Below, piece by piece: positions 7,872 to 31,120 of a stretch of 55,323 nucleotides of DNA. How positions within the stretch are numbered: position 1 is the stretch's first letter; each line of letters begins with the position of its first letter. The stretch is from an uncultured Anaerolineaceae bacterium (GTDB taxonomy: Bacteria > Chloroflexota > Limnocylindria > Limnocylindrales > CSP1-4), in assembly GCA_964610835.1 (NCBI GenBank), contig CAZSWK010000005.1, forward strand, positions 1 through 55,323, written 5' to 3'. The position numbers were made by a program, and so were the translations under genes. The notes beneath the pieces were generated by a model. It made no database searches. It was not told the DNA's origin and saw only the letters and a program-made list of their open reading frames with translations.

Positions 7872-8537
7872 CTACTTGGCGCGCGAGCGCGATGCCTTGG
7901 GGGCCTTCTCCTGGTCGGCCGTGGCGGCCTTCTTGCGGGCAGCAGTCTTGGCTGCCGGCTTGCCGGTGGCCTTCGCCGCCGATTTGGCGCTGCTGGCGCG
8001 CGTGCGCGGCTTCTCTTCGACCGCAGGCTCGGCTTTGGCCGCCGCGGCCGCGCGCGGCTTGGCCGCAGCGGCGCGGGTGCTGCGGGCGAGGGCGGCACGT
8101 GCCTTGCCGGCAGCGGTCTGCTCGCCCTTGGCCTTGCTCGCCTTCGAGGCGGCGATCCGTGCGCGCGCCTGCTTGGCCGACTGAGCCTTGCTCGTGGAGC
8201 GCGCCTGGGCCGGCACCGCCGCGATCTCGCCGCCGAGCGCGGCATTGACCTTGAGCATCAGCCGGCTCTTGCGGCGACTGGCTGCGTTGGCGTGAATCGC
8301 ACCGATCTTGGCGGCGCGGTCGAGAGCCGAAACGGCACGCTGTACGGAAGCCTGTACCTCCTGCGCGTCGCCGCCATTGCTGGCTGCCTCCGCTGCGCTG
8401 GCCAACGCTCGAGCGACGAGTGTCTTGGCCGCAGTGCGCCGTGGCTGGTTGATGGCGCGCCGCCGCTGCGCCTGGCGGACGTTCTTGATGGCCGATGGAG
8501 TGCGGGCGCCGGTCCAACCGCGCGGTGAATGAGCCAA
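7872..8537 (-). CDS. rpsT: 30S ribosomal protein S20 with long Ala/Lys/Arg-rich C-terminal tail
   Basis: SAIKNVRQAQRRRAIN...LDRAAKIGAIHANAASRRKSRL core; TTG start after GAGGA; 221 aa, of which about 118 aa are low-complexity tail. Confidence 0.9.
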   Translation of the reverse strand: MAHSPRGWTGARTPSAIKNVRQAQRRRAINQPRRTAAKTLVARALASAAEAASNGGDAQEVQASVQRAVSALDRAAKIGAIHANAASRRKSRLMLKVNAALGGEIAAVPAQARSTSKAQSAKQARARIAASKASKAKGEQTAAGKARAALARSTRAAAAKPRAAAAAKAEPAVEEKPRTRASSAKSAAKATGKPAAKTAARKKAATADQEKAPKASRSRAK

Positions 8538-20400: not shown

Positions 20401-20425
20401 CCAACCCGCACACGAAGTGAGGCTG

Positions 20426-21490
20426 ATGGCGCGTCGCAAGGATCGACCTGCCGGCCCGCTGGACCCCCGTTCTCAGGCGATCCTGCGGGCAGTGATCGAG
20501 GAATATGTCGCATCCGCCGAGCCGGTCGGCAGCCAGGCGCTGGTCGACCGCTATCGGTTCGATGTCAGTTCGGCCACGGTGCGCAACGTGATGGCCGAGT
20601 TGGAGCTGGCCGGCTATCTGACCCATCCGCACACGTCCGCCGGCCGTGTGCCGACCGACGCGGGCTACCGACTGTACGTCGAGGCCATCGCGCCGCGGAT
20701 GAACATCGCGCCGGTCGAGCGCCTGATGATTCGCCACCAGTTCGGACAGGTCGAGTTTGCCAGCGAGCAATGGTTCCGGCTGGCGGCAACGACGATCGCC
20801 GGACTGACGCACGGCGCCGGCTTGGCCACGCCGGCCAAGCCACGCGCCTGCCGCCTGCGCCACCTCGACCTGGTGGCCACCAGCCCGAGTACGGCAAGCC
20901 TGGTGGTGGTGCTCGCCGAGGGCGCGGTCAAGCAGGAACTCGTGCCGCTCGATGACGGCTATGACCAGGGTGAGCTGGATGACGTTTCGCGCTTGCTCAA
21001 CGAGCATCTCGACGGTTGCTCGGCGCGGCAGATTGCCCGCCGCGTCGGAGAGCTCGAAGACGATGCGGGGGCACCGGCGCTGGCCGTACGCGTCGCGCAG
21101 CGGGTTGCGCACATCCTGCATGAAACGGACGCGGCGACCGTCGAGGACATCTTCTCCGACGGGCTGCTGAACGTGATGGACGAGCCCGAGTTCGAGCAAA
21201 GCGAGAAGCTCCGCCGCGTGTTCGGTGTGCTCCAGAACCGTGATTACCTGGGCTCGCTGGTGCGGCAGCTTGCCAGTGCAACCGACGTCCAGGTGCTCAT
21301 CGGGGCGGAGAACGAGCCACCGGAGATGCACGACGTTTCGCTCGTCCTCGCCTCGTACGGCCACCCCGGCCGGGCCGTGGGCGTGGTGGGCGTGCTGGGC
21401 CCGACGCGGATGGCCTACCCGCAGGCCATCGGGACCGTTCGCTACGTGAGCGGGCTGATGAATGAACTCGTGGAGCAGCTGTATCGATGA
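20426..21490 (+). CDS. hrcA: Heat-inducible transcription repressor HrcA
   Basis: EPVGS, SSATVRNVM, HPHTSAGRVPT, GVLGPTRM; downstream of CIRCE. Confidence 0.97.
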   Translation: MARRKDRPAGPLDPRSQAILRAVIEEYVASAEPVGSQALVDRYRFDVSSATVRNVMAELELAGYLTHPHTSAGRVPTDAGYRLYVEAIAPRMNIAPVERLMIRHQFGQVEFASEQWFRLAATTIAGLTHGAGLATPAKPRACRLRHLDLVATSPSTASLVVVLAEGAVKQELVPLDDGYDQGELDDVSRLLNEHLDGCSARQIARRVGELEDDAGAPALAVRVAQRVAHILHETDAATVEDIFSDGLLNVMDEPEFEQSEKLRRVFGVLQNRDYLGSLVRQLASATDVQVLIGAENEPPEMHDVSLVLASYGHPGRAVGVVGVLGPTRMAYPQAIGTVRYVSGLMNELVEQLYR

Positions 21491-22071
21491 CCGAACACCG
21501 GCGCCGGACGCGCGCGGAGGAGCGCATAGCAGGACTCGACGTATCGCCACAGAAATTGGCAGCAGAGGTCGAGGAGATGCGCGCGCAACTTGCCGAGGCG
21601 CAGCAGGAGGCTGCCGAGAGCAAGGCGGGCTGGCAGCGAATTGCGGCCGATTTCGCCAACTTTCGCCGGCGCACCGAGCAGGACCGCGAGCAAACGCTCG
21701 GACTGGCGAGCGAGGCGCTGCTGGCCAAGCTGCTGACCATCGTCGACGACTTCGACCGCGCCCTGGCGAACATGCCCGCCGAGACCCAGCATGCTGCCTG
21801 GCTCGATGGCATCGTCGCCATCGATCGCAAGCTGCGCCAGCTGCTCGACTCGGAGGGCCTGACGCCGATCGACGCGCTCGGCCAGCCGTTCAATCCACAT
21901 GAGCACGAAGCGGTCGTGCAGGAGGAGACGACCAACGTGCCGGAAGGCACGGTGACGGCGGAGCTCCAGCGCGGTTACCGCATCAGGGACCGGGTCCTGC
22001 GGCCAGCCATGGTCGCCGTGGCCAAGAGTCCCGGCCACTCGAACCCAACCAATCCCGGAGGAACGAACTGA
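21487..22071 (+). CDS. grpE: Nucleotide exchange factor GrpE
   Basis: [33 protein letters not shown]. Confidence 0.96.
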
Positions 22072-22073
22072 CA

Positions 22074-24002
<1,929 letters not shown>

Positions 24003-24005
<3 letters not shown>

Positions 24006-24320
24006 CCGCACTCAGCGGCGGGTCCTGCCGGCGGGTGTCGGCCGAGGCTCGGGCCTGCCGCTGCGCGTCCTGACGGCCACTCGCCCCGGCGCGGCCACTC
24101 GCCGTCACCCGCCGCGCCCACGGCCGCATGCCGCGCCAGGTGCGGCAGTGAGCCGGGAATCGCATTATTCGGCCGTCGGAGCCGGCCGCGCGGTGCCCTT
24201 TCCTGCCGATTTCGCATCAGGCGCGTGCTTCTGGCCGCAGCTGGCCAGTGATCCGCCTGGCCGGGGAAGTGCCGTTCGCCGATTGGCGCTCAGTGACCGC
24301 ACCGGGTGCGGAATCGGGGT
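24003..24320. repeat. Palindromic intergenic repeat, copy A
   Basis: Shares with copy B: AGCGGCGGGTCCTGCC (24014-24029), a 36-nt block 24128-24163 (34/36 identical) and a 37-nt block 24283-24319 (32/37) containing the palindrome CCGCACC-N-GGTGCGG. Confidence 0.8.
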
Positions 24321-24558
24321 CGGAGTCGCGTGGGCCGCGGTTATGGCCCGGGTAAAGCGACTTAACCCAGGCGCTGGTTTCTTCATCAACCTCTCAGCGG
24401 GCTCATAACCGACCGCCCATATGGTCATCCCCGGCACGCGTCGGGGAGACGGCGCGGCCACCCAGCAGGGGTTCGCGCCAGGGGAGCTGAGCTACGCCGG
24501 AGGGCAGAGCCGGCGTACCGGGGGCGGCGGCCCGCGGCGTGACCCGAGGAGGTGGGTC

Positions 24559-26148
24559 ATGTTCGCGCCCGTCCGAGCGTTCGTCGCACTGTGCTCGTGT
24601 CTGCTCCTGGTGGCCTGCTCGGGTGTTGCCGGACCAACCGGTGGTCCGGTCCAGCCCCCACAGCACGGTGGCTGGACGCCACCGCCGGCTCGCGTGCCAC
24701 CGGCGCCGACATCGGCACCCTGGCCCGGCCAGAGTTGGGCGGCGCCGACCAGCGCGCCCTATCCGGGCACCAACTTCCAGGACAGCGGCGTCAACCCGTT
24801 CATCGATCCGGCCAGCGATCCCTACTCGACGTTCGCCATGGACGTTGACACAGCTTCGTACTCGGTTGCTCGCAGCTACCTGGCCGACGGCAACCTCCCC
24901 GACCGCAACAGCGTGCGTGTCGAGGAGTTCGTCAACGCCTTCGACTACGGCTACCCGGCGCCAGTCAACGACACGTTCGCGATCAGCATCGACGGCGGCC
25001 CGTCGCCCTTCGTCGGCCGGCGCGCGCTCGAGCTGCGCATCGGTATCCAGGCGCGCCTCGTCTCGAGCGAGGCACGACCGCCGGTGTCGCTCACGTTCGT
25101 CATCGACACCTCCGGATCGATGGGCATCGACAACCGGCTCGGGCTGGTCAAGGCGGCCCTCGATCTGCTCGTGTCGCGTCTCCAGCCCGACGACTCGGTA
25201 GCCATCGTTCGTTTTGGGTCTGACGCCAGCGTGGTCCTGCCGCCCACGTCGGCGGCCGAACCGCAGGTCATCGAGGACGCCATCGCACAGCTGTCACCCG
25301 GCGGCTCGACCAACGCCCAGGCGGGCCTCGAGCTTGGCTATGACCTCGCCGCCGCGGCTCGCCGCCCGCGCGCGACGGATCGCGTTGTCCTCGCGTCGGA
25401 CGGCGTGGCCAACGTCGGGCTGACCGATGCCAACTCCATCCTGGCGCGCATCGACCGCCAGGTCGACGCCGGCGTGGAGCTGGTGTCGATCGGCGTGGGC
25501 ATGGGCAATTTCAACGACGTCCTGCTCGAGCAGCTGGCCGACCGCGGCAACGGCTTCTACGCGTACATCAATGATCGGTCGGACGCGGAGCGGGTGTTCG
25601 GTTCGCAACTGACGGGGACCCTGGTCACGGTGGCGCAGGACGCGCGCGTGCAGGTCACCTTTGACCCCGCAGCCGTGTCGCGCTACCGGCTACTGGGCTA
25701 CGAGAACCGGCAGATGGCCGACTCCGACTTCAACAACCCGGCGGCGGACGCGGGCGAGGTCGGCGCCGGGCACAGCGTCACCGCGCTCTACGAGGTCGAG
25801 CCCGACTGGAACCGGGCGCCGACCCTGGGCACGGTCAGCCTGCACTGGATCGATCCCGACACGGGCGCTCGGCGCGAGCTGACGCGCACGATCGACCTGG
25901 GCAATCTCAGCGCCGACTACCGCAGCACCAGCGCCGGCTTCCACCTGGCGGCAACCGTCGCCGGCCTGGCCGAGCTGTTGCGCGACAGTCCCTACGCGAC
26001 TGAGTTCAACCTTGCTGACGTGGCATCGCAGGCCGAATCGCTGCCCACCTACTTCCCTGGCAATCGCGACGTGGCCGATTTCGCCGGCATGGCCGCGACG
26101 GCGGCACGCATCAGCCAGAACAACTCCGCCTCGAGCTGGGGCTGGTAG
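24559..26148 (+). CDS. VWA-domain lipoprotein (YfbK-like: vWF_A + VWA + DUF3520-type C-terminus)
   Basis: SD GAGGAGG; lipobox LVAC; STFAMDVDTASY, VEEFVNAF, MIDAS DTSGSM, GGSTN, SDGVANVG, YRLLGYENR, GEVGAGHSVTALYE. Confidence 0.9.
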   Translation: MFAPVRAFVALCSCLLLVACSGVAGPTGGPVQPPQHGGWTPPPARVPPAPTSAPWPGQSWAAPTSAPYPGTNFQDSGVNPFIDPASDPYSTFAMDVDTASYSVARSYLADGNLPDRNSVRVEEFVNAFDYGYPAPVNDTFAISIDGGPSPFVGRRALELRIGIQARLVSSEARPPVSLTFVIDTSGSMGIDNRLGLVKAALDLLVSRLQPDDSVAIVRFGSDASVVLPPTSAAEPQVIEDAIAQLSPGGSTNAQAGLELGYDLAAAARRPRATDRVVLASDGVANVGLTDANSILARIDRQVDAGVELVSIGVGMGNFNDVLLEQLADRGNGFYAYINDRSDAERVFGSQLTGTLVTVAQDARVQVTFDPAAVSRYRLLGYENRQMADSDFNNPAADAGEVGAGHSVTALYEVEPDWNRAPTLGTVSLHWIDPDTGARRELTRTIDLGNLSADYRSTSAGFHLAATVAGLAELLRDSPYATEFNLADVASQAESLPTYFPGNRDVADFAGMAATAARISQNNSASSWGW

Positions 26149-26576
26149 CCGCGACGGGTAGCGGCGGGTCCTGCCCGGCGGTCGCGACCTCCGCCGGGTG
26201 GCGACTGCGCTGCGCGCAAAGCCACCCTCCTGCGGCGCGGCGACCGCCGGTCACCGCCGCACGCGCCGAAATGAATGTCCCGCCACCACACTGACAGGGC
26301 GCCGCACGACTAGCCGCAAGCGGAGCGGTGGCTGACGACGATCTCCGGGAACGAGCAGTCCGGACCCGCGTCTGACCCGGAGCGATGCCGCGCCAGGTGC
26401 GGCAGTCAGCCGGAAATCGCTGCGTTGGCCGGAGAGGAGCGTGGCGCAACGACGTTTGCCGCCGATTCCGCACTGCGCACGTGTCGTGTGCCGCAGTTTG
26501 CAGCTGGCTCGTCGCGTCCGGTGTGTCACCCCGCCCAGTTAGCGCCCAGTGACCGCACCCGGTGCGGACTCGGGAC
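26146..26576. repeat. Palindromic intergenic repeat, copy B (about 115-nt insertion relative to A)
   Basis: Blocks at 26160-26175, 26385-26420 and 26539-26575 match copy A in the same order and orientation. Confidence 0.8.
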
Positions 26577-26615
26577 CGAACGTCTGGCCGCGAGGCGTCA
26601 CGCGACGAATGGCCC

Positions 26616-26673
26616 TTGACAGGCCTGATACCCACCATATCTACTAAGTCCGGTAACTTAGTGGAATTAGTAG
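26616..26673 (+). promoter_or_regulatory. Promoter -35 and candidate repressor operator upstream of the ABC importer
   Basis: TTGACA 26616-26621; ACTAAGT-N6-ACTTAGT inverted repeat (26643-26662) nested in CTACTAA-N19-TTAGTAG; AT-rich island in GC-rich DNA; -10 not clean. Confidence 0.7.
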
Positions 26674-26688
26674 CGAAGTGGTGGCGAA

Positions 26689-27720
26689 ATGGCGCGCGCG
26701 TGGTGGCCCGGTCTAGCGGCGGTGGTCGTGGCGATGGTTGTCGGCTGCAGCGCGGCTGCGGCCCCGACGTCGGCACCGGTGGTGACGCACCTGGGTTACT
26801 TCCCCAACATCACCCATGCAGCGGCGATCGTCGGCGTGGAGAAGGGCTACTTCGCAGATGCCCAGCAGGGCATGTCGGATATCGAGACGCTGACGTTCAA
26901 CGCCGGCCCCGACGCGGTGACCGCGATCCTGGCCGGCAGCCTTGATGCCAGCTTTGTCGGGCCCAACCCGGCCGTCAATGCCTTCGTCAAATCGCGCGGC
27001 GAGGCAATCCGCATAGTGTCCGGCGCGACTTCCGGCGGCGCCTTTTTCGTCGTTCGCGACGGCATCAATTGCGTCGAGGACCTCAAGGGCAAGAAGATCG
27101 CCACGCCGCAGCTGGGCAATACCCAGGACGTGGCGCTGCGCGCCTGGCTGAGCGCCAACGGGTTGACCGCCGACGCTCAGGGCGGCGGCGATGTCTCCAT
27201 CGTGCCGCAGTCCAACTCGCAGACGCTGCAGACGTTCCAGTCCGGCGAGATCGACGGCGCGTGGGTGCCCGAGCCGTGGGCCACGCGCATGATCACCGAG
27301 GGTGGCGCGCACGTGCTCGTCGACGAGCGTGACCTGTGGCCGGACGGCCAGTACGTGACCACCTTGCTGATGGTCCGCACCGATTTCCTGGCTCAGCACC
27401 GCGACGTGGTCAAGCACCTCATCGAGGGCCTGCTGAAGGCAACCGACTACGTCAACGATCAGCCGGCCGACGCGCAGGTCACGGTCGGCACTCAGTTGAC
27501 GCAGCTCACGGGCACGTTGCTGCCGGGCGGCGTCCTCGGAAGCGCATGGGGCAACCTGACCTTCACCATGGACCCGATCGCCGCGTCGCTCCAGACGTCG
27601 GCCGACGAGGCCCAGGCGCTTGGCTTTCTCGACTCGTCTGACCTGACCGGCATCTTCGATCTGTCGGTGCTCAACGAGGTATTGAGCGAGGCCGGCCGGC
27701 CCACGGTGGCGCTGCCGTGA
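26689..27720 (+). CDS. ABC substrate-binding lipoprotein, SsuA/TauA/NMT1 family
   Basis: Lipobox VVGC; LGYFPNITHA, FNAGP, GPNPAVN, TPQLGNTQDVALR, WVPEPWA. Confidence 0.88.
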   Translation: MARAWWPGLAAVVVAMVVGCSAAAAPTSAPVVTHLGYFPNITHAAAIVGVEKGYFADAQQGMSDIETLTFNAGPDAVTAILAGSLDASFVGPNPAVNAFVKSRGEAIRIVSGATSGGAFFVVRDGINCVEDLKGKKIATPQLGNTQDVALRAWLSANGLTADAQGGGDVSIVPQSNSQTLQTFQSGEIDGAWVPEPWATRMITEGGAHVLVDERDLWPDGQYVTTLLMVRTDFLAQHRDVVKHLIEGLLKATDYVNDQPADAQVTVGTQLTQLTGTLLPGGVLGSAWGNLTFTMDPIAASLQTSADEAQALGFLDSSDLTGIFDLSVLNEVLSEAGRPTVALP

Positions 27721-28514
27721 GCGCGGTCGCCCTTCCGCGGCCGTCAGGTAACGCCGAGCCGCTCGTCGCGGACACCGTGTTGTCCGTACGCGACGTGCGG
27801 AAGTCCTACGGCCCGGCCGGCAACAACGTGCTGGCACTCGATGGCATCTCGCTGGACGTGTCTCGCGGCGAGTTCGTGTGCCTGGTCGGCGCGTCCGGCT
27901 GTGGCAAGACGACGCTGCTCAACCTGGTCAGCGGCCTCGACGGACAGACGCGCGGTGAGATCGCGATCAACGGCCGCACGACGCTGCTCTTCCAGGAAGC
28001 CGCGCTCTTTCCGTGGCTCACCGCCGCCGCGAACATCGAGCTGCCGCTTACTCTCGCCAGGGCGCCGAAGAGCGAGCGCCGCGCCGAGGTGGAGCAGCTG
28101 CTCCGGCTGGTGCACCTCGACGGCTTCGGCGACAAGCGCCCGCACGAGCTCTCGGGCGGCATGCGTCAACGCGTGGCCCTTGCGCGTGCCTTCGCGCAGC
28201 ACGCCGACGTGCTGCTCATGGACGAGCCGTTCGGGGCCCTCGACGCCATGACGCGCGACCTGCTCCACGACGAGCTCGAGCGGATCTGGCGCGAAACACG
28301 CGTGACCATCGTCTTCGTCACCCACAACGTGCGCGAGGCGGTGCGCCTGGGCGACCGCATCGTCGTGCTCACCAGCCGGCCGGGCAGGGTAGCCGGGGAG
28401 TTCCGGGTGGACCTGCCGCGGCCACGGAACATCTCGGGGCCTGACGTGGCCGAGCTGGCCTACACAGTCACCGAGCGGCTGCGCGAGGAAGTCAGGCGGC
28501 ACGCCGATGGCTGA
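27717..28514 (+). CDS. ABC ATP-binding protein (SsuB/TauB-like)
   Basis: GASGCGKT, LSGGM, LMDEPFGALD, VTH. Confidence 0.93.
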   Translation: MSAVALPRPSGNAEPLVADTVLSVRDVRKSYGPAGNNVLALDGISLDVSRGEFVCLVGASGCGKTTLLNLVSGLDGQTRGEIAINGRTTLLFQEAALFPWLTAAANIELPLTLARAPKSERRAEVEQLLRLVHLDGFGDKRPHELSGGMRQRVALARAFAQHADVLLMDEPFGALDAMTRDLLHDELERIWRETRVTIVFVTHNVREAVRLGDRIVVLTSRPGRVAGEFRVDLPRPRNISGPDVAELAYTVTERLREEVRRHADG

Positions 28515-29382
28515 CATCGCGCGCCTGCCCGGGCGGCGGCTCGAAGACGAGCTGCGCGGTCTCGACGCACTCGACCTGCCGCTCCGCCCCGCGGCCGATC
28601 GGCTGCGCTCGATCTGGTCCGGCCTGTGGCCCAAGCTGGCCGCGGTTGGCATCGTGCTGCTCATCTGGCAGCTCGCGGTCTGGGCGAAGTTCCGGCCCGA
28701 CTACATCCTTCCCGGGCCGCTGACGGTCTTCGGCCAGTTCGGCGACCAGGTCTTCGTCAGGGACCTGCCCGACGCGACGCTGATCACGCTGCAGCGCGCT
28801 GCTCTCGGCTTTGGCCTGGCGCTCGCCATCGGCTCGCTGCTCGGCCTGGCGATCGTCCGTTCGCGCCTGCTGCGCACGGCCGTCGCCTCGCTGATCACCG
28901 GGCTGCAGACCATGCCCTCGATCGCCTGGTTCCCGCTGGCGATCCTCATCTTCGGCCTCAACGAGGCGGCCATCCTGTTTGTGGTGATCCTGGGCGCTGC
29001 GCCGTCGATCGCCAACGGCCTGATTGCCGGCGTCGACCAGATCCCGCGCATCCTGCTGCGCGCCGGCCAGGTGATGGGTGCGCACGGCCTCGCGCGCTAC
29101 CGCCATGTCGTCATGCCGGCGGCCCTGCCCGCGTTCGTGGGCGGGCTCAAGCAGGGTTGGGCGTTCGCCTGGCGCAGCCTGATGGCCGGTGAACTGCTGG
29201 TCATCATCGCCAACCAACCGTCGATCGGGGTGAAGCTGAACTACGCTCGCGAGATGTCAAATGCGCCCGCGCTGCTGGCGACGATGATCGTCATTCTGTT
29301 CGTCGGCATCGTGGTCGACCTGGTCTTCTTCGGGACGCTCGACCGGGCCATCCGGCGGCGCTGGGGGCTGATCGAAGGCTGA
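28507..29382 (+). CDS. ABC permease (SsuC/TauC-like)
   Basis: LQTMPSIAWFPL, GLKQGWAFAWRSLMAGE. Confidence 0.92.
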   Translation: MADIARLPGRRLEDELRGLDALDLPLRPAADRLRSIWSGLWPKLAAVGIVLLIWQLAVWAKFRPDYILPGPLTVFGQFGDQVFVRDLPDATLITLQRAALGFGLALAIGSLLGLAIVRSRLLRTAVASLITGLQTMPSIAWFPLAILIFGLNEAAILFVVILGAAPSIANGLIAGVDQIPRILLRAGQVMGAHGLARYRHVVMPAALPAFVGGLKQGWAFAWRSLMAGELLVIIANQPSIGVKLNYAREMSNAPALLATMIVILFVGIVVDLVFFGTLDRAIRRRWGLIEG

Positions 29383-29871
29383 TCAGGTCGTGCGGCCGGC
29401 GCCCCGAACGCGGCTGAGCGAGGTCCATGCCTCGGGGTCGGCCGTCAACCGCCGCACTGCGTCGGGCAGCGTGTCGTCGACCAGGTCCTGCAGGCTGGTC
29501 CCTTCGAGCACCTCGCGCAGGCTCGCGCGCACGGCTACCCAGACATCGCGCAAGGCCTGCGCGGCGCCCACGTACTCGACGTTCTCGACGCGCTCGCCGC
29601 GAACGTACGCGAGCGGGCCGTCGACGGCACGGATGACGTCGGCCACGCTGATGTCAGTCGCGGGCCGCGCCAACGCATAACCTCCCTCGGCACCGCGCGT
29701 GCTCTTGACGATGCCCGTGTGCTTGAGGTCGAGCATGATCGTCTCGAGGAACTTGGAGGGAATGCTCTGCGCGTCGGAGATCTGGTCGCGCTTGAGCGGC
29801 CGGCCGTCGGGTGAGGCAGCCAGCTCGGCGGCTGCGCGGACGGCGTAGTCGGCCTTGGCGGAGACGCGCAT
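29383..29871 (-). CDS. Rrf2 family transcriptional regulator, Cys-free (CymR-like)
   Basis: MRVSAKADYAVRA, FLETI, STRGAEGGYALARPA, VIRAVDGPL; no Cys in the protein; start placed at ATG 29871. Confidence 0.92.
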   Translation of the reverse strand: MRVSAKADYAVRAAAELAASPDGRPLKRDQISDAQSIPSKFLETIMLDLKHTGIVKSTRGAEGGYALARPATDISVADVIRAVDGPLAYVRGERVENVEYVGAAQALRDVWVAVRASLREVLEGTSLQDLVDDTLPDAVRRLTADPEAWTSLSRVRGAGRTT

Positions 29872-29983
29872 GGGCTCATTGTCGGTTATCGGCAGCGCCC
29901 GTTTTGACGAGTTGTCACCCGATCGATAGTCCGCGTGAAATCTCTTGATCAGTCGTGCACGAGACGCGAGCGAAAGTGGCGTC

Positions 29984-31120
29984 ATGGACGACAAGGCAAC
30001 CTCCCGCCGACGGCCGCGCGGCATATTCGCGGTGACAGTATTCAGCGTGCTTGCTCTGGCCGCAGCGGCGTGCGGTAGCGGTGCGAGCGCCACGCCAACG
30101 CCGACCGCGCCGCTCGTCAGCTCCGCCTCGCCGCTTGCCTCGAGTGCGCCTGTTGCGTCGACCGCACCGCCGCCGTCATCGTCGCCCATGCTCAGCCCGT
30201 CGCCGGCCACGACGGCGTACCCGGATCCGTTCGCCAGCGTGGTCGATATCGTCAACAACGTCCAGCCGTCGGTCGTCACCGTGCTGGTCGACAACGGGCT
30301 GGGCAGCGGCATCATCTACGACAGCAACGGCGACATCGTGACCAACAATCACGTGGTTGCCGGCAGCCTGCACTACACCGTCGCGCTCACCACCGGCGCG
30401 CGGCTCACGGCTACTCTCGTCGGCACCGACCCGCAGACCGACATTGCCGTCCTGCATGTCAACCGCACCGGCTTGCCCGCGGCGACGTTTGCGACCAGCC
30501 TGCCGCCGGTTGGTTCACTCGCCGTGGCCATCGGCAGCCCGCTTGGCTTCCAGGAAACCGTCACCGCCGGCGTCATCTCCGGGGTCGGGCGCGAGATCCC
30601 CGGGTCGGCCTCGCAGGGCACGCCGCTGGTCGACCTCATCCAGACCGACGCGGCCATCTCGCCCGGCAATTCGGGCGGGGCGCTGGTCGACGCGGCCGAG
30701 AAGGTCGTGGGCATGAACGAGGCCTATATTCCGCCCAGTACCGGGGCCGTATCGCTCGGCTTCGCCATTCCGGCGTCGACGGTCACCAGCGTCGCCGACG
30801 AGCTGATCGCCGGCCAGCCGGTCCAGCACACGTACCTGGGCATTCGCTACGGCGCGGTAACGACGCAGGTGGCCCAGCAGTACGGCCTGGCGGTTGATCA
30901 CGGCCTGTACGTGGTCGACGTCTCGTCCGGTAGCCCGGCGGCCGCGGCGGGCCTCATGCCGGGAGACGTGATCGTGCAGGTCGACGGCCAGTCGATGTAC
31001 CAGGTGGAAGACCTGCTCACCCTGCTCCGTCAGCACACTGCCGGGGACACGATCTCGGTTACGATCGTGCGCAACGGCAAGCAAGAGACGCTCAGCGTGA
31101 CGCTCGGCGAGCACGCCTAG
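29984..31120 (+). CDS. HtrA/DegP-like S1C serine protease with one PDZ domain (probable lipoprotein)
   Basis: TNNHVV, DIAVL, GNSGG triad; LAAAAC lipobox-like; C-terminal PDZ (SPAAAAGL..GDVI). Confidence 0.92.
   Translation: MDDKATSRRRPRGIFAVTVFSVLALAAAACGSGASATPTPTAPLVSSASPLASSAPVASTAPPPSSSPMLSPSPATTAYPDPFASVVDIVNNVQPSVVTVLVDNGLGSGIIYDSNGDIVTNNHVVAGSLHYTVALTTGARLTATLVGTDPQTDIAVLHVNRTGLPAATFATSLPPVGSLAVAIGSPLGFQETVTAGVISGVGREIPGSASQGTPLVDLIQTDAAISPGNSGGALVDAAEKVVGMNEAYIPPSTGAVSLGFAIPASTVTSVADELIAGQPVQHTYLGIRYGAVTTQVAQQYGLAVDHGLYVVDVSSGSPAAAAGLMPGDVIVQVDGQSMYQVEDLLTLLRQHTAGDTISVTIVRNGKQETLSVTLGEHA

What the first reader, a model, noticed from the sequence alone, without database searches (positions are those of the whole stretch)
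24003..26576. Two diverged copies of a 320-430-nt palindromic element bracket the VWA lipoprotein gene
Both copies start at the upstream gene's TAG (TAGCCGC...AGCGGCGGGTCCTGCC) and keep the same ordered blocks: 24128-24163 vs 26385-26420 (34/36), GCCGATT(T/C)CGCA, GCCGCAG..CTGGC, and 24283-24319 vs 26539-26575 (32/37) with the perfect palindrome CCGCACC-N-GGTGCGG. CCAGGTGCGGC (24136-24146) can pair with GCCGCAGCTGG (24234-24244). Conserved blocks separated by divergent spacers imply selection on structure or binding sites. Possible identities are a REP/MITE-like non-autonomous element, an attenuator family or an ncRNA. Direct orientation could allow recombinational insertion or excision of the VWA gene at the dnaK 3' end.
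Basis: partly seen in the sequence, partly recalled or inferred. Interest (0 to 1): 0.62.

Follow-up and report, generated by a model that had tools for sequence, protein, structure and literature searches.

The report
Two small dispersed repeats flanking VWA
The two look-alike stretches on either side of the VWA gene are real. Each joins two small, non-coding, scattered repeat elements of a narrow group of uncultured soil Chloroflexota, an ordinary kind of bacterial "junk-like" repeat, and they did not bring the VWA gene in or take it out.

Summary
Each copy (A 24006-24326, B 26149-26580) is a composite of two unrelated repeat families.

- **M1** is a ~110-nt GC-rich hairpin that starts just after the stop codon. 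This genome has 3 copies, and 9 of 25 genomes of the genus (this one included) have 1-4. Compensatory changes support the hairpin.
- **M2** is a ~190-bp unit ended by two 15-bp palindromes (CCGCRCC-N-GGTGCGG) that form ~24-bp imperfect terminal inverted repeats. This genome has at least 9 copies. The family is confined to about five sister species.

Sister genomes have empty sites at three places: polA 3', the rho/S9-peptidase spacer and dnaK 3'. No copy matches Rfam, none shows a coding signal, and M2 shows no RNA covariation. No Y1, TnpB, IS110 or IS4/5 transposase was found.

The best reading is orphan MITE/REP-like elements, with B an old local duplicate of the composite. The VWA gene is ancestral at dnaK 3'. 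Relatives lost it by internal deletions that kept its leader and, in one species, a gene remnant, not by recombination between the repeats.

Two points remain odd:
- Orthologous copies are conserved far above neutral sites.
- M2 lengths come in ~10-bp steps.

The parts
24003..24005 (+). dnaK stop codon TAG. Copy A begins directly after it.
   Evidence: ORF 22074-24005 is HSP70 (E 1.7e-268). Sequence read.
24010..24120 (+). M1a: the divergent copy of the ~110-nt GC-rich long hairpin. Its ends are conserved. Its 75-nt centre is only about 45% identical to the other copies but still pairs.
   Evidence: Covariance model R2 hit at 61.9 bits. Fold. Pair counts. Mosaic table.
24122..24324 (+). M2a: the ~190-bp repeat unit, of the dnaK-site type. 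It is 90.7% identical to the orthologous copy in sister genome G006.
   Evidence: Model R1 hit, E 9.6e-37. nhmmer. Identity matrix.
24131..24145 (.). 5' terminal palindrome of M2a, CCGCGCCAGGTGCGG, followed by CAGTGA.
24297..24311 (.). 3' terminal palindrome of M2a, CCGCACCGGGTGCGG, preceded by CAGTGA. Its centre lies 166 bp from the centre of the 5' palindrome.
   Evidence: Inverted repeat I6. Distances.
24333..24463 (+). X: the native 5' leader or promoter region of the VWA gene. It is not part of the repeat. It travels with VWA in other species and survives in relatives that lost VWA.
   Evidence: BLASTN hits at 75-79% directly upstream of VWA in G020, G014, G018 and G001. Sequences. Retained in G013 and G006.
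24559..26148 (+). VWA/YfbK-type lipoprotein gene, ancestral at this locus.
   Evidence: Pfam domains vWF_A, VWA and YfbK_C. Orthologues at 58-66% amino-acid identity lie next to dnaK in G014, G015, G018, G020 and G024.
26156..26265 (+). M1b: the conserved-type copy of the long hairpin. It is 98% identical to the hairpin after dnaK in G013 and 93% identical to the one in G006.
   Evidence: R2 hit at 103.5 bits. Fold z-scores of -2.6 and -3.0.
26266..26382 (+). Spacer between M1b and M2b, with no similarity elsewhere in the genome.
   Evidence: No BLAST hits for B positions 113-236. Alignment.
26383..26580 (+). M2b: an old paralogue of the dnaK-site M2, 68-70% identical to M2a and to the G006 and G013 copies. 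Its terminal palindromes are at 26388-26402 and 26553-26567, 165 bp apart.
   Evidence: R1 hit, E 1.8e-32..
26604..26688 (+). P: the promoter/operator region of the NMT1-type ABC transporter operon (TTGACA at 26616 and an AT-rich palindrome CTACTAAGT..ACTTAGT). It is not part of the repeat and is 87-93% conserved in G006 and G013.

Best explanation
Each copy is a composite of two unrelated small non-coding repeat elements. Both are specific to one lineage of a Limnocylindria (Chloroflexota) genus.

**M1.** M1 is a ~110-nt GC-rich imperfect palindrome that sits a few bases after a stop codon. I infer that it acts as a 3'-end hairpin in the transcript, either a terminator or a block to 3' exonucleases, as REP sequences do.

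**M2.** M2 is a ~145-195-bp MITE-like DNA element. Its two ends each carry the palindrome CCGCRCC-N-GGTGCGG. Together with the adjacent CAGTGA they form imperfect terminal inverted repeats of about 24 bp. M2 entered new intergenic sites during the divergence of these species; this is shown by empty sites. I infer that an enzyme bound both ends to move it. No such enzyme is encoded in these genomes any more, so the copies are orphans. Some of them are now kept by selection.

**History of the pair.** The M1+M2 composite was inserted between the dnaK stop and the native VWA leader in the ancestor of three species. Copy B is an old local duplicate of that composite placed after VWA. One possible route is a tandem duplication of [M1-M2-X-VWA] joined at TAG|CCGC, followed by loss of the second X-VWA. 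This route is inferred.

**The VWA gene.** VWA is ancestral. The repeats neither delivered it nor removed it.
For: **Copy number and spread.**
- M2 has at least 9 copies in this genome, three of them cut by contig ends.
- Sister genomes have 4, 3, 1 and 1 copies, and the other 36 relatives have none.
- Whole-collection pattern scans found only this clade.
- M1 has 3 copies here and 1-4 copies in 9 of 25 genus genomes, this one included.
- Most copies lie at non-orthologous sites: only the element is shared, not the flanks.

**Empty sites in relatives.**
- polA 3' spacer: 9-40 nt in G006 and G016, against about 385 nt here.
- rho/S9-peptidase spacer: about 50 nt in G006, against about 480 nt here.
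- dnaK 3': G020 reads dnaK-TAG, small terminator hairpin, X, VWA, with no M1 or M2.

**Ends of M2.**
- In the better-preserved copies the 5' end matches the reverse complement of the 3' end at 18-22 of 23-26 positions; other copies match over only 5-19 nt.
- 82% of cells are complementary against 27-42% in slid controls, and there is no covariation. This fits conserved DNA ends rather than an RNA stem.

**M1 hairpin.** 91.6% of cells are paired. 13 pairs carry compensatory changes against 4.2 in shuffles (0/500).

**Not coding and not a known RNA.**

**B as a paralogue of the dnaK-site composite.**
- The modules are in the same order and the TAG|CCGC junction is the same.
- M2b's nearest relatives are the dnaK-site copies (68-70% against at most 64% to others).

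**VWA is ancestral.**
Against: - No target-site duplication could be defined, because the flanks of filled and empty sites have diverged too far.
- No autonomous partner was found. Y1 (PF01797), TnpB (PF07282), IS110 (PF01548) and IS4/5 DDE (PF01609) are all absent from 8 genomes. Other transposase families were not tested, and the genomes are at most 90% complete.
- Copy numbers are very low for a MITE or REP family.
- Orthologous copies are far more conserved than neutral sites: M2 at 86-91% and M1 at 93-98%, against 61-67% at four-fold sites. A purely selfish relic would not behave this way.
- The inserted segments at polA and rho are about 350-430 nt. That is longer than M2, and their tails are not shared between copies.
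- The M1 history is mosaic and unresolved. At the dnaK site the relatives carry a B-like hairpin centre (72-74 of 75 positions) inside A-like flanks.
Confidence: 0.6

Rival explanations
1. M2 is a domesticated DNA module bridged by a protein, not a selfish relic. An unidentified dimeric DNA-binding protein binds both terminal palindromes and loops the 93-167 bp between them, with an architectural or regulatory role at about 10 loci.
For: - Centre-to-centre distances between the two palindromes fall into classes of 93, 145-146, 155-157 and 165-167 bp. At 10.4-10.5 bp per turn these are near-integral numbers of helical turns (about 9, 14, 15, 16). This holds in all 16 copies, and in a further metagenome copy, even where interiors are only 52-60% identical.
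- Orthologous copies are 86-91% identical against 61-67% at four-fold sites.
- Internal blocks are conserved across subfamilies.
- The palindrome is found essentially only as pairs inside M2. Solo sites occur at background frequency.
Against: - The length classes may reflect only about three indel events inherited by descent.
- Helical phasing of the ends is equally expected if a transposase had to bring together the ends of an element shorter than the DNA persistence length.
- No candidate binding protein was identified.
- The copies sit in unrelated contexts and in either orientation.
- The empty sites show recent gain, which a conserved regulon would not.
Confidence: 0.17
2. M1 and/or M2 are transcribed structured RNAs whose function lies in the RNA: an sRNA family, a 3'-UTR-derived RNA of dnaK, or a leader/attenuator for the downstream genes.
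For: - The M1 hairpin has strong compensatory support and is 93-98% conserved directly after dnaK or VWA.
- Copies A and B both lie between co-oriented genes.
- RNAalifold with ribosum scoring gives M2 a terminal stem.
Against: - There is no Rfam match at E<=1 for any copy.
- M2 lies sense, antisense, between divergent genes and between convergent genes.
- There is no conserved promoter or U-tract terminator.
- Length steps of 10 bp have no meaning for an RNA.
- M1's compensatory changes are mostly Watson-Crick to Watson-Crick, so both strands fold equally well.
Confidence: 0.12
3. The two copies are only a local segmental duplication or decayed coding sequence with no wider family, and they serve as recombination substrates that excise or insert VWA.
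For: - A and B are in direct orientation around one gene.
- Relatives lacking VWA have a single composite copy with mosaic similarity to A and B.
Against: - Both modules have further copies at unrelated loci.
- There is no coding signal.
- Relatives retain X, and G006 retains a VWA remnant, downstream of M2. A crossover between A and B would have removed both.
- The longest perfect A/B match is only 22 nt (24128-24149 against 26385-26406).
Confidence: 0.04

Closest known systems
Bacterial MITEs, for example Correia/CREE of Neisseria, ERIC/IRU and the enterobacterial RU-1/2/3 elements (reviews PMC3184786, PMC10969869, PMC2229807)
   Same: M2 is 120-195 bp long and non-coding, and it has imperfect terminal inverted repeats. 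It is intergenic and dispersed at unrelated loci. It is present or absent at the same site in sister species.
   Different: - No target-site duplication could be defined.
- No parent IS or transposase was found.
- There are only about 1-10 copies per genome.
- Each end is itself a palindrome, so the ends read as both direct and inverted repeats.
- Lengths are quantised in ~10-bp steps.
- Orthologous copies are conserved above neutral sites.
REP / REPIN elements mobilised by RAYT tyrosine transposases (PMC3116915, PMC3337134)
   Same: M1 is a GC-rich extragenic palindrome placed just after stop codons. It is a ~100-nt long hairpin, like a REPIN (two inverted REPs plus a spacer). Its pairing is kept through compensatory change. 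A role in stabilising or terminating the upstream mRNA is plausible; this last point rests on my own knowledge of REP function.
   Different: - No RAYT or Y1 transposase is present in any of 8 genomes tested.
- There are 1-4 copies per genome, not tens to hundreds.
- There is no conserved GTAG-type head.
BIMEs of E. coli: mosaic elements made of REP units plus other short motifs (my own knowledge, not checked here)
   Same: A and B are composites of a palindromic unit and a second conserved motif block, in a fixed order, lying between genes.
   Different: The sequences are unrelated. No binding of IHF, gyrase or Pol I is known or testable here.
Small repeats found in frame inside genes: enterobacterial RU elements (PMC2759123), Coxiella MITEs (PMC5896051), and Rickettsia palindromic elements (my own knowledge)
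   Same: One M1 copy lies in frame inside the disordered linker of LigD (C11:9514-9632). The orthologous position in G006 also carries it.
   Different: There is only this one case. The LigD linker varies in length in all relatives, so a clean empty site was not shown.

Membership tests
MITE (miniature inverted-repeat transposable element) | Short non-coding unit with terminal inverted repeats | tested here: met
   M2 is 120-194 bp long. In the better-preserved copies the 5' end matches the reverse complement of the 3' end at 18-22 of 23-26 positions; other copies match over shorter stretches. 82% of cells are complementary against 27-42% in slid controls. There is no coding signal.
MITE (miniature inverted-repeat transposable element) | Multiple dispersed copies, with presence/absence at the same site in relatives | tested here: met
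   This genome has at least 9 copies. Empty sites exist at polA, rho/S9-peptidase and dnaK 3'.
MITE (miniature inverted-repeat transposable element) | Target-site duplication flanking the insert | tested here: inconclusive
   The filled and empty alleles are about 20% diverged, and the inserted segments are longer than M2. No duplication could be read.
MITE (miniature inverted-repeat transposable element) | A related autonomous IS or transposase with the same ends | tested here: not met
   PF01797, PF07282, PF01548 and PF01609 are absent from 8 genomes, while the controls were positive. This genome has no pair of end motifs a few kb apart. Other transposase families were not tested, and the genomes are at most 90% complete.
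REP/REPIN-RAYT system | A RAYT (Y1 tyrosine transposase) gene in the genome | tested here: not met
   PF01797 gave 0 of 8 genomes and 6 of 14 control genomes.
REP/REPIN-RAYT system | Tens to hundreds of near-identical palindromic units | tested here: not met
   M1 has 1-4 copies per genome. M2 has 1-9 copies, 52-91% identical to each other.
IS200/IS605-derived palindrome-associated elements or TnpB guide-RNA remnants | TnpA(Y1) or TnpB present, with sub-terminal hairpins | tested here: not met
   Terminal hairpins are present. Neither Y1 nor TnpB is present.
Any curated RNA family (Rfam 15) | Covariance-model match | tested here: not met
   No match at E<=1 covers any M1 or M2 copy in the window or in 7 other loci.
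Integron attC gene-cassette sites | Imperfect palindrome after a cassette ORF, with GTTRRRY/RYYYAAC core sites and a nearby integrase | tested here: not met
   M1 is an imperfect palindrome after ORFs with a variable centre. Its ends read AGCGGCGGG...CCCGCCGC, not the attC core sites. One copy lies inside a gene. The neighbouring genes are ordinary chromosomal genes. A search for an integrase was not run.

The most novel reading that the evidence does not exclude
M2 may be a small protein-DNA looping module rather than a transposon relic. Two CCGCRCC-N-GGTGCGG palindromes are held an integral number of helical turns apart (about 9, 14, 15 or 16). The copies are kept under purifying selection at about 10 loci of a few Limnocylindria species, and the binding protein is not yet identified. 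M1 would be a selected 3'-end hairpin of the dnaK heat-shock transcript.
Probability: 0.15. Interest if true: 0.55.

Novelty: new member of a known kind. Interest (0 to 1): 0.3.

Why it matters
- **Annotation.** The result explains two odd 540-550-nt gaps in a heat-shock locus. It separates the repeat DNA from two real regulatory regions: the VWA leader X and the transporter promoter/operator P.
- **A correction.** The VWA gene was not carried by the repeats.
- **Uncultured Chloroflexota.** The work documents two lineage-specific small repeat families in genomes where none of four major transposase families was found. It also shows that the region after dnaK is a hotspot of gene gain and loss.
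- **Open leads.** The ~10-bp length steps of M2 and the near-identity of M1 between species are cheap to test. If either reflects function, it would point to an unknown DNA-binding protein or to a 3'-end element of the dnaK operon.

Tried and rejected
- **Rfam** on the window region and on 7 other copies found nothing.
- **Coding reading.** The third-position GC test calls no gene inside A or B. Six overlapping ORFs have no Pfam match below E 0.05.
- **RNA structure for M2.**
  - The RNAalifold covariation term is +0.53.
- **A long hairpin as an obligatory upstream partner of every M2** is not general.
- **Consensus promoter and terminator scan** gave nothing above shuffles.
- **Transposase partners** Y1, TnpB, IS110 and IS4/5 DDE are absent.
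- **A regulon of solo palindromes.** Solo sites occur at background frequency.
- **The previously reported inverted-repeat element at about 41.2 kb** of this window is unrelated by BLAST.
- **A clean empty site for the M1 copy in LigD.** The linker length varies in all relatives, so this is inconclusive.
- **Deletion of VWA by a crossover between A and B** is rejected, because the relatives keep X and a VWA remnant.
- **Wider family members.** The genome contigs and metagenome-contig scans returned only this clade and this population.
Full report
**Context.** The window is contig C5 of a 2.5-Mb, 68% G+C, 152-contig genome about 90% complete. Its close relatives are soil MAGs labelled 'uncultured Chloroflexia bacterium'. 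Earlier notes of this scan place the genome in Limnocylindria.

The local gene order is as follows:

| Gene | Coordinates |
|---|---|
| hrcA | 20417-21490 |
| grpE | 21487-22071 |
| dnaK | 22074-24005 |
| VWA/YfbK-type lipoprotein | 24559-26148 |
| NMT1-type binding protein | 26689-27720 |
| ABC ATPase | 27717-28514 |
| permease | 28507-29382 |
| Rrf2 regulator (minus strand) | 29383-30315 |

The two spacers of interest are A (24006-24558) and B (26149-26688).

A and B share two collinear stretches.
- The first is 69.7% identical over 195 nt (E 2e-10).
- The second is 73% identical over 108 nt.
- The quoted blocks are 34/36 and 32/36, and the perfect 15-nt palindrome is confirmed.
- Both copies start at TAG followed by CCGC.
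- No ORF in either spacer shows the third-position G+C bias of real genes in this genome, and none has a Pfam match.
- Rfam finds nothing.

**Each copy is two modules.**

*M1* lies at 24010-24120 and 26156-26265.
- It folds into a long hairpin.
- nhmmer finds exactly three copies in this genome. The third is at C11:9514-9632.
- A covariance model finds 1-4 copies in 9 of the 25 genomes of the genus, this one included. Most are at sites that share only the element.
- Across six copies, 91.6% of the 214 pair cells are standard pairs.
- 13 of 36 pairs carry changes on both sides, against 4.2 in shuffles (0/500) and 1-4 in slid controls. The hairpin itself is therefore maintained.

*M2* lies at 24122-24324 and 26383-26580.
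- Iterated nhmmer finds further copies at C2:66086-66268(-), C10:43490-43674(-), C4:50487-50671(+), C117:2493-2672(+) and C8:857-1023(-).
- It also finds three partial copies cut by contig ends.
- A sequence-only model finds 9 hits here, 4 in G013, 3 in G006, and 1 each in G019 and G011. The other 36 relatives have none.
- A pattern joining both ends found only G006 and G013 among 185,579 species genomes.
- In JGI metagenomes the same pattern found only this population plus one new copy.

**Anatomy of M2.** All copies begin with a palindrome CCGCRCC-N-GGTGCGG followed by CAGT(GA). They end with CAGTGA followed by the same palindrome.
- In the better-preserved copies the 5' end matches the reverse complement of the 3' end at 18-22 of 23-26 positions; other copies match over shorter stretches. 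These are imperfect terminal inverted repeats.
- Conserved blocks lie in between: TTTGCNGCCGATTNCGCAC, CGTGC and GCCGCA/CAATTT. They are separated by variable sequence.
- Pairing of the two ends is 82% against 27-42% in slid controls. It shows no covariation (96/500 shuffles do as well).
- The default RNAalifold covariation term is +0.53.
- Orientation relative to neighbouring genes is mixed:
  - sense between co-oriented genes (A and B);
  - antisense between co-oriented genes (C10 and C117);
  - between divergent genes (C2 and C8);
  - between convergent genes (C4).
- These facts fit a DNA-level repeat, not a cis-regulatory RNA.

**Gain and loss of copies.**
- At polA 3', G006 and G016 have 9-40 nt where this genome has about 385 nt that include M2.
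- In the rho/S9-peptidase spacer, G006 has about 50 nt where this genome has about 480 nt.
- At dnaK 3', G020 reads dnaK-TAG, a small terminator hairpin, and then the VWA leader X, with no M1 or M2. Copy A is therefore itself an insertion.
- The C117 copy is orthologous in G013: the flanks are 82% identical over 3.2 kb and the element is 86% identical.
- One subfamily comprises C2, C10 and C4 in this genome and C3 in G013. Its members are 77-82% identical at four unrelated loci.
- I could not read a target-site duplication.
- The inserted segments are longer than M2, and their tails are not shared.

**No mobilising enzyme found.** Y1/RAYT (PF01797), TnpB (PF07282), IS110 (PF01548) and IS4/5-type DDE (PF01609) are absent from this genome and seven relatives. 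The control genomes were positive in each search. No pair of M2 end motifs lies a few kb apart in this genome. Other transposase families were not tested.

**The VWA gene is ancestral and was not moved by the repeats.**
- VWA orthologues at 58-66% identity lie next to dnaK in G014, G015, G018, G020 and G024.
- G001 has the order dnaK-ABC operon-VWA.
- The leader X (24333-24463) accompanies VWA in those species.
- G006 and G013 lack VWA but read dnaK-M1-M2-X-...-P-NMT1.
- G006 also keeps a remnant of VWA residues ~452-505 (FNVADLASEAESLP..., E 3e-6 to 8e-7) between X and P.
- G019 has a similar remnant.
- A crossover between A and B would have removed X and the remnant. The losses were therefore internal deletions.
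- Today the longest perfect A/B match is 22 nt. From general knowledge of RecA-dependent recombination, that is a poor substrate.
- The stretch between dnaK and the Rrf2 gene is a hotspot of gene gain and loss across the genus.

**Relation of A to B.**
- Both have M1 then M2, both start at TAG|CCGC, and both M2 copies belong to the 192-194-nt class.
- M2b is closest to the dnaK-site copies (68-70%) and further from all others (at most 64%). B is therefore an old paralogue of the dnaK-site composite.
- A tandem duplication of [M1-M2-X-VWA] joined at TAG|CCGC, followed by loss of the second X-VWA, would give this layout. This is inference.
- One feature remains unexplained. The single composite of G006 and G013 is A-like in the leader after TAG (24/24 for G013), in the 3' end of M1 and in X. 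G006 is also A-like in M2, while G013's M2 is about equally distant from A and B. Yet the 75-nt hairpin centre of both relatives is B-like (72-74 of 75 positions, against 33-35 of 75 for A).
- Gene conversion between hairpins, or remodelling of the palindrome in copy A, could account for this. I cannot decide between them.

**Signs of constraint.**
- Four-fold degenerate sites of five flanking genes are 54-74% identical, mostly 61-67%, between this genome and G006 or G013.
- Against that, M1b is 98% identical to the G013 hairpin and 93% identical to the G006 hairpin.
- Orthologous M2 pairs are 86-91% identical.
- The distance between the centres of the two M2 palindromes takes only the values 93, 145-146, 155-157 and 165-167 bp in 16 copies, and 156 bp in a further metagenome copy.
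- At 10.4-10.5 bp per turn these distances are near-integral numbers of helical turns. This holds even where interiors are only 52-60% identical.
- The pattern suggests that a protein must bring the two ends together on one face of the DNA. That could be a transposase acting on a very short element, or a looping DNA-binding protein.
- The pattern might also rest on only about three indel events, so I treat it as suggestive.
- Solo palindromes are not enriched elsewhere in the genome.

**Verdict.**
- The finding is real, and the 'REP/MITE-like element' reading is right in kind.
- Membership of the REP/RAYT and IS200/IS605 systems fails on the missing enzyme.
- MITE membership is met for ends, dispersal and insertion polymorphism. 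It is not met for a partner transposase, and a target-site duplication is undetermined.
- The attenuator/ncRNA reading and the 'VWA cassette' reading are not supported.
- This is a new, low-copy, clade-restricted member of a known kind of bacterial repeat, with two open oddities: conservation above neutral sites and the length steps.

Noticed in passing
G000 contig C11:9514-9632 (locus L050:1514-1632); orthologue at G006:C5:58841-58954 (L099): A third M1 hairpin copy lies in frame inside the disordered linker (residues ~544-584) between the ligase and polymerase domains of a 900-aa LigD gene. The G006 LigD orthologue carries it at the same place. Other species have linkers of different length and sequence there.
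   Followed up: partly
window 24333-24463: The VWA leader X is conserved upstream of VWA across the genus, even where VWA sits after the ABC operon (G001). It carries a motif TAACG..CTTAACC-N10-12-TTTCTTCA and a hairpin GCACGCGTCGGGGAGACGGCGCG that is identical in G020. It is a candidate promoter or 5'-UTR regulatory element of the VWA lipoprotein gene.
   Followed up: partly
window 26604-26688: TTGACA at 26616 is followed by an AT-rich palindrome, CTACTAAGTCCGGTAACTTAGTGGAATTAGTAG. The stretch is 87-93% conserved in G006 and G013, and 24 nt are conserved in G016. It is a likely promoter plus operator of the NMT1/ABC operon, perhaps for the adjacent Rrf2 regulator.
   Followed up: partly
window 24006-30315, compared with loci L027-L044: The stretch between dnaK and the Rrf2 gene varies strongly within the genus. 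VWA is present or absent, the NMT1-ABC operon is present or absent, the order is swapped in G001, other DNA of 1-2.7 kb is inserted in G014, G015, G016 and G011, and VWA remnants remain in G006 and G019.
   Followed up: partly
L040 (G015:C2:75588-81388), reverse strand, about 485-745 nt after the start of the fetched stretch: The 770-nt dnaK-VWA spacer of G015 holds four copies of a different palindrome, TTGTGGG(A/C)A(T/A)(T/G/A)CCCACA. This is another local repeat family, unrelated to M1 and M2.
   Followed up: no
G000 contig C2, about 66333-66432: A run of 100 N is flanked on both sides by the same 55 nt (GCATCGGCCATGCATCTAGCGACATC...). This is a scaffolding-gap artefact right next to an M2 copy.
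   Followed up: yes
L018 (G006), about 8105-8160: Directly upstream of the G006 dnaK-site M2, its first ~17 nt are partly duplicated in tandem (GCATGGCCGCGCCAGGT CGCATGCCGCGCCGGGT).
   Followed up: no
G000 contig C8:1092-1998: An MscS-like channel gene next to an M2 copy appears split over two overlapping frames (1092-1457 and 1372-1998). This is either a frameshift or an assembly error.
   Followed up: no
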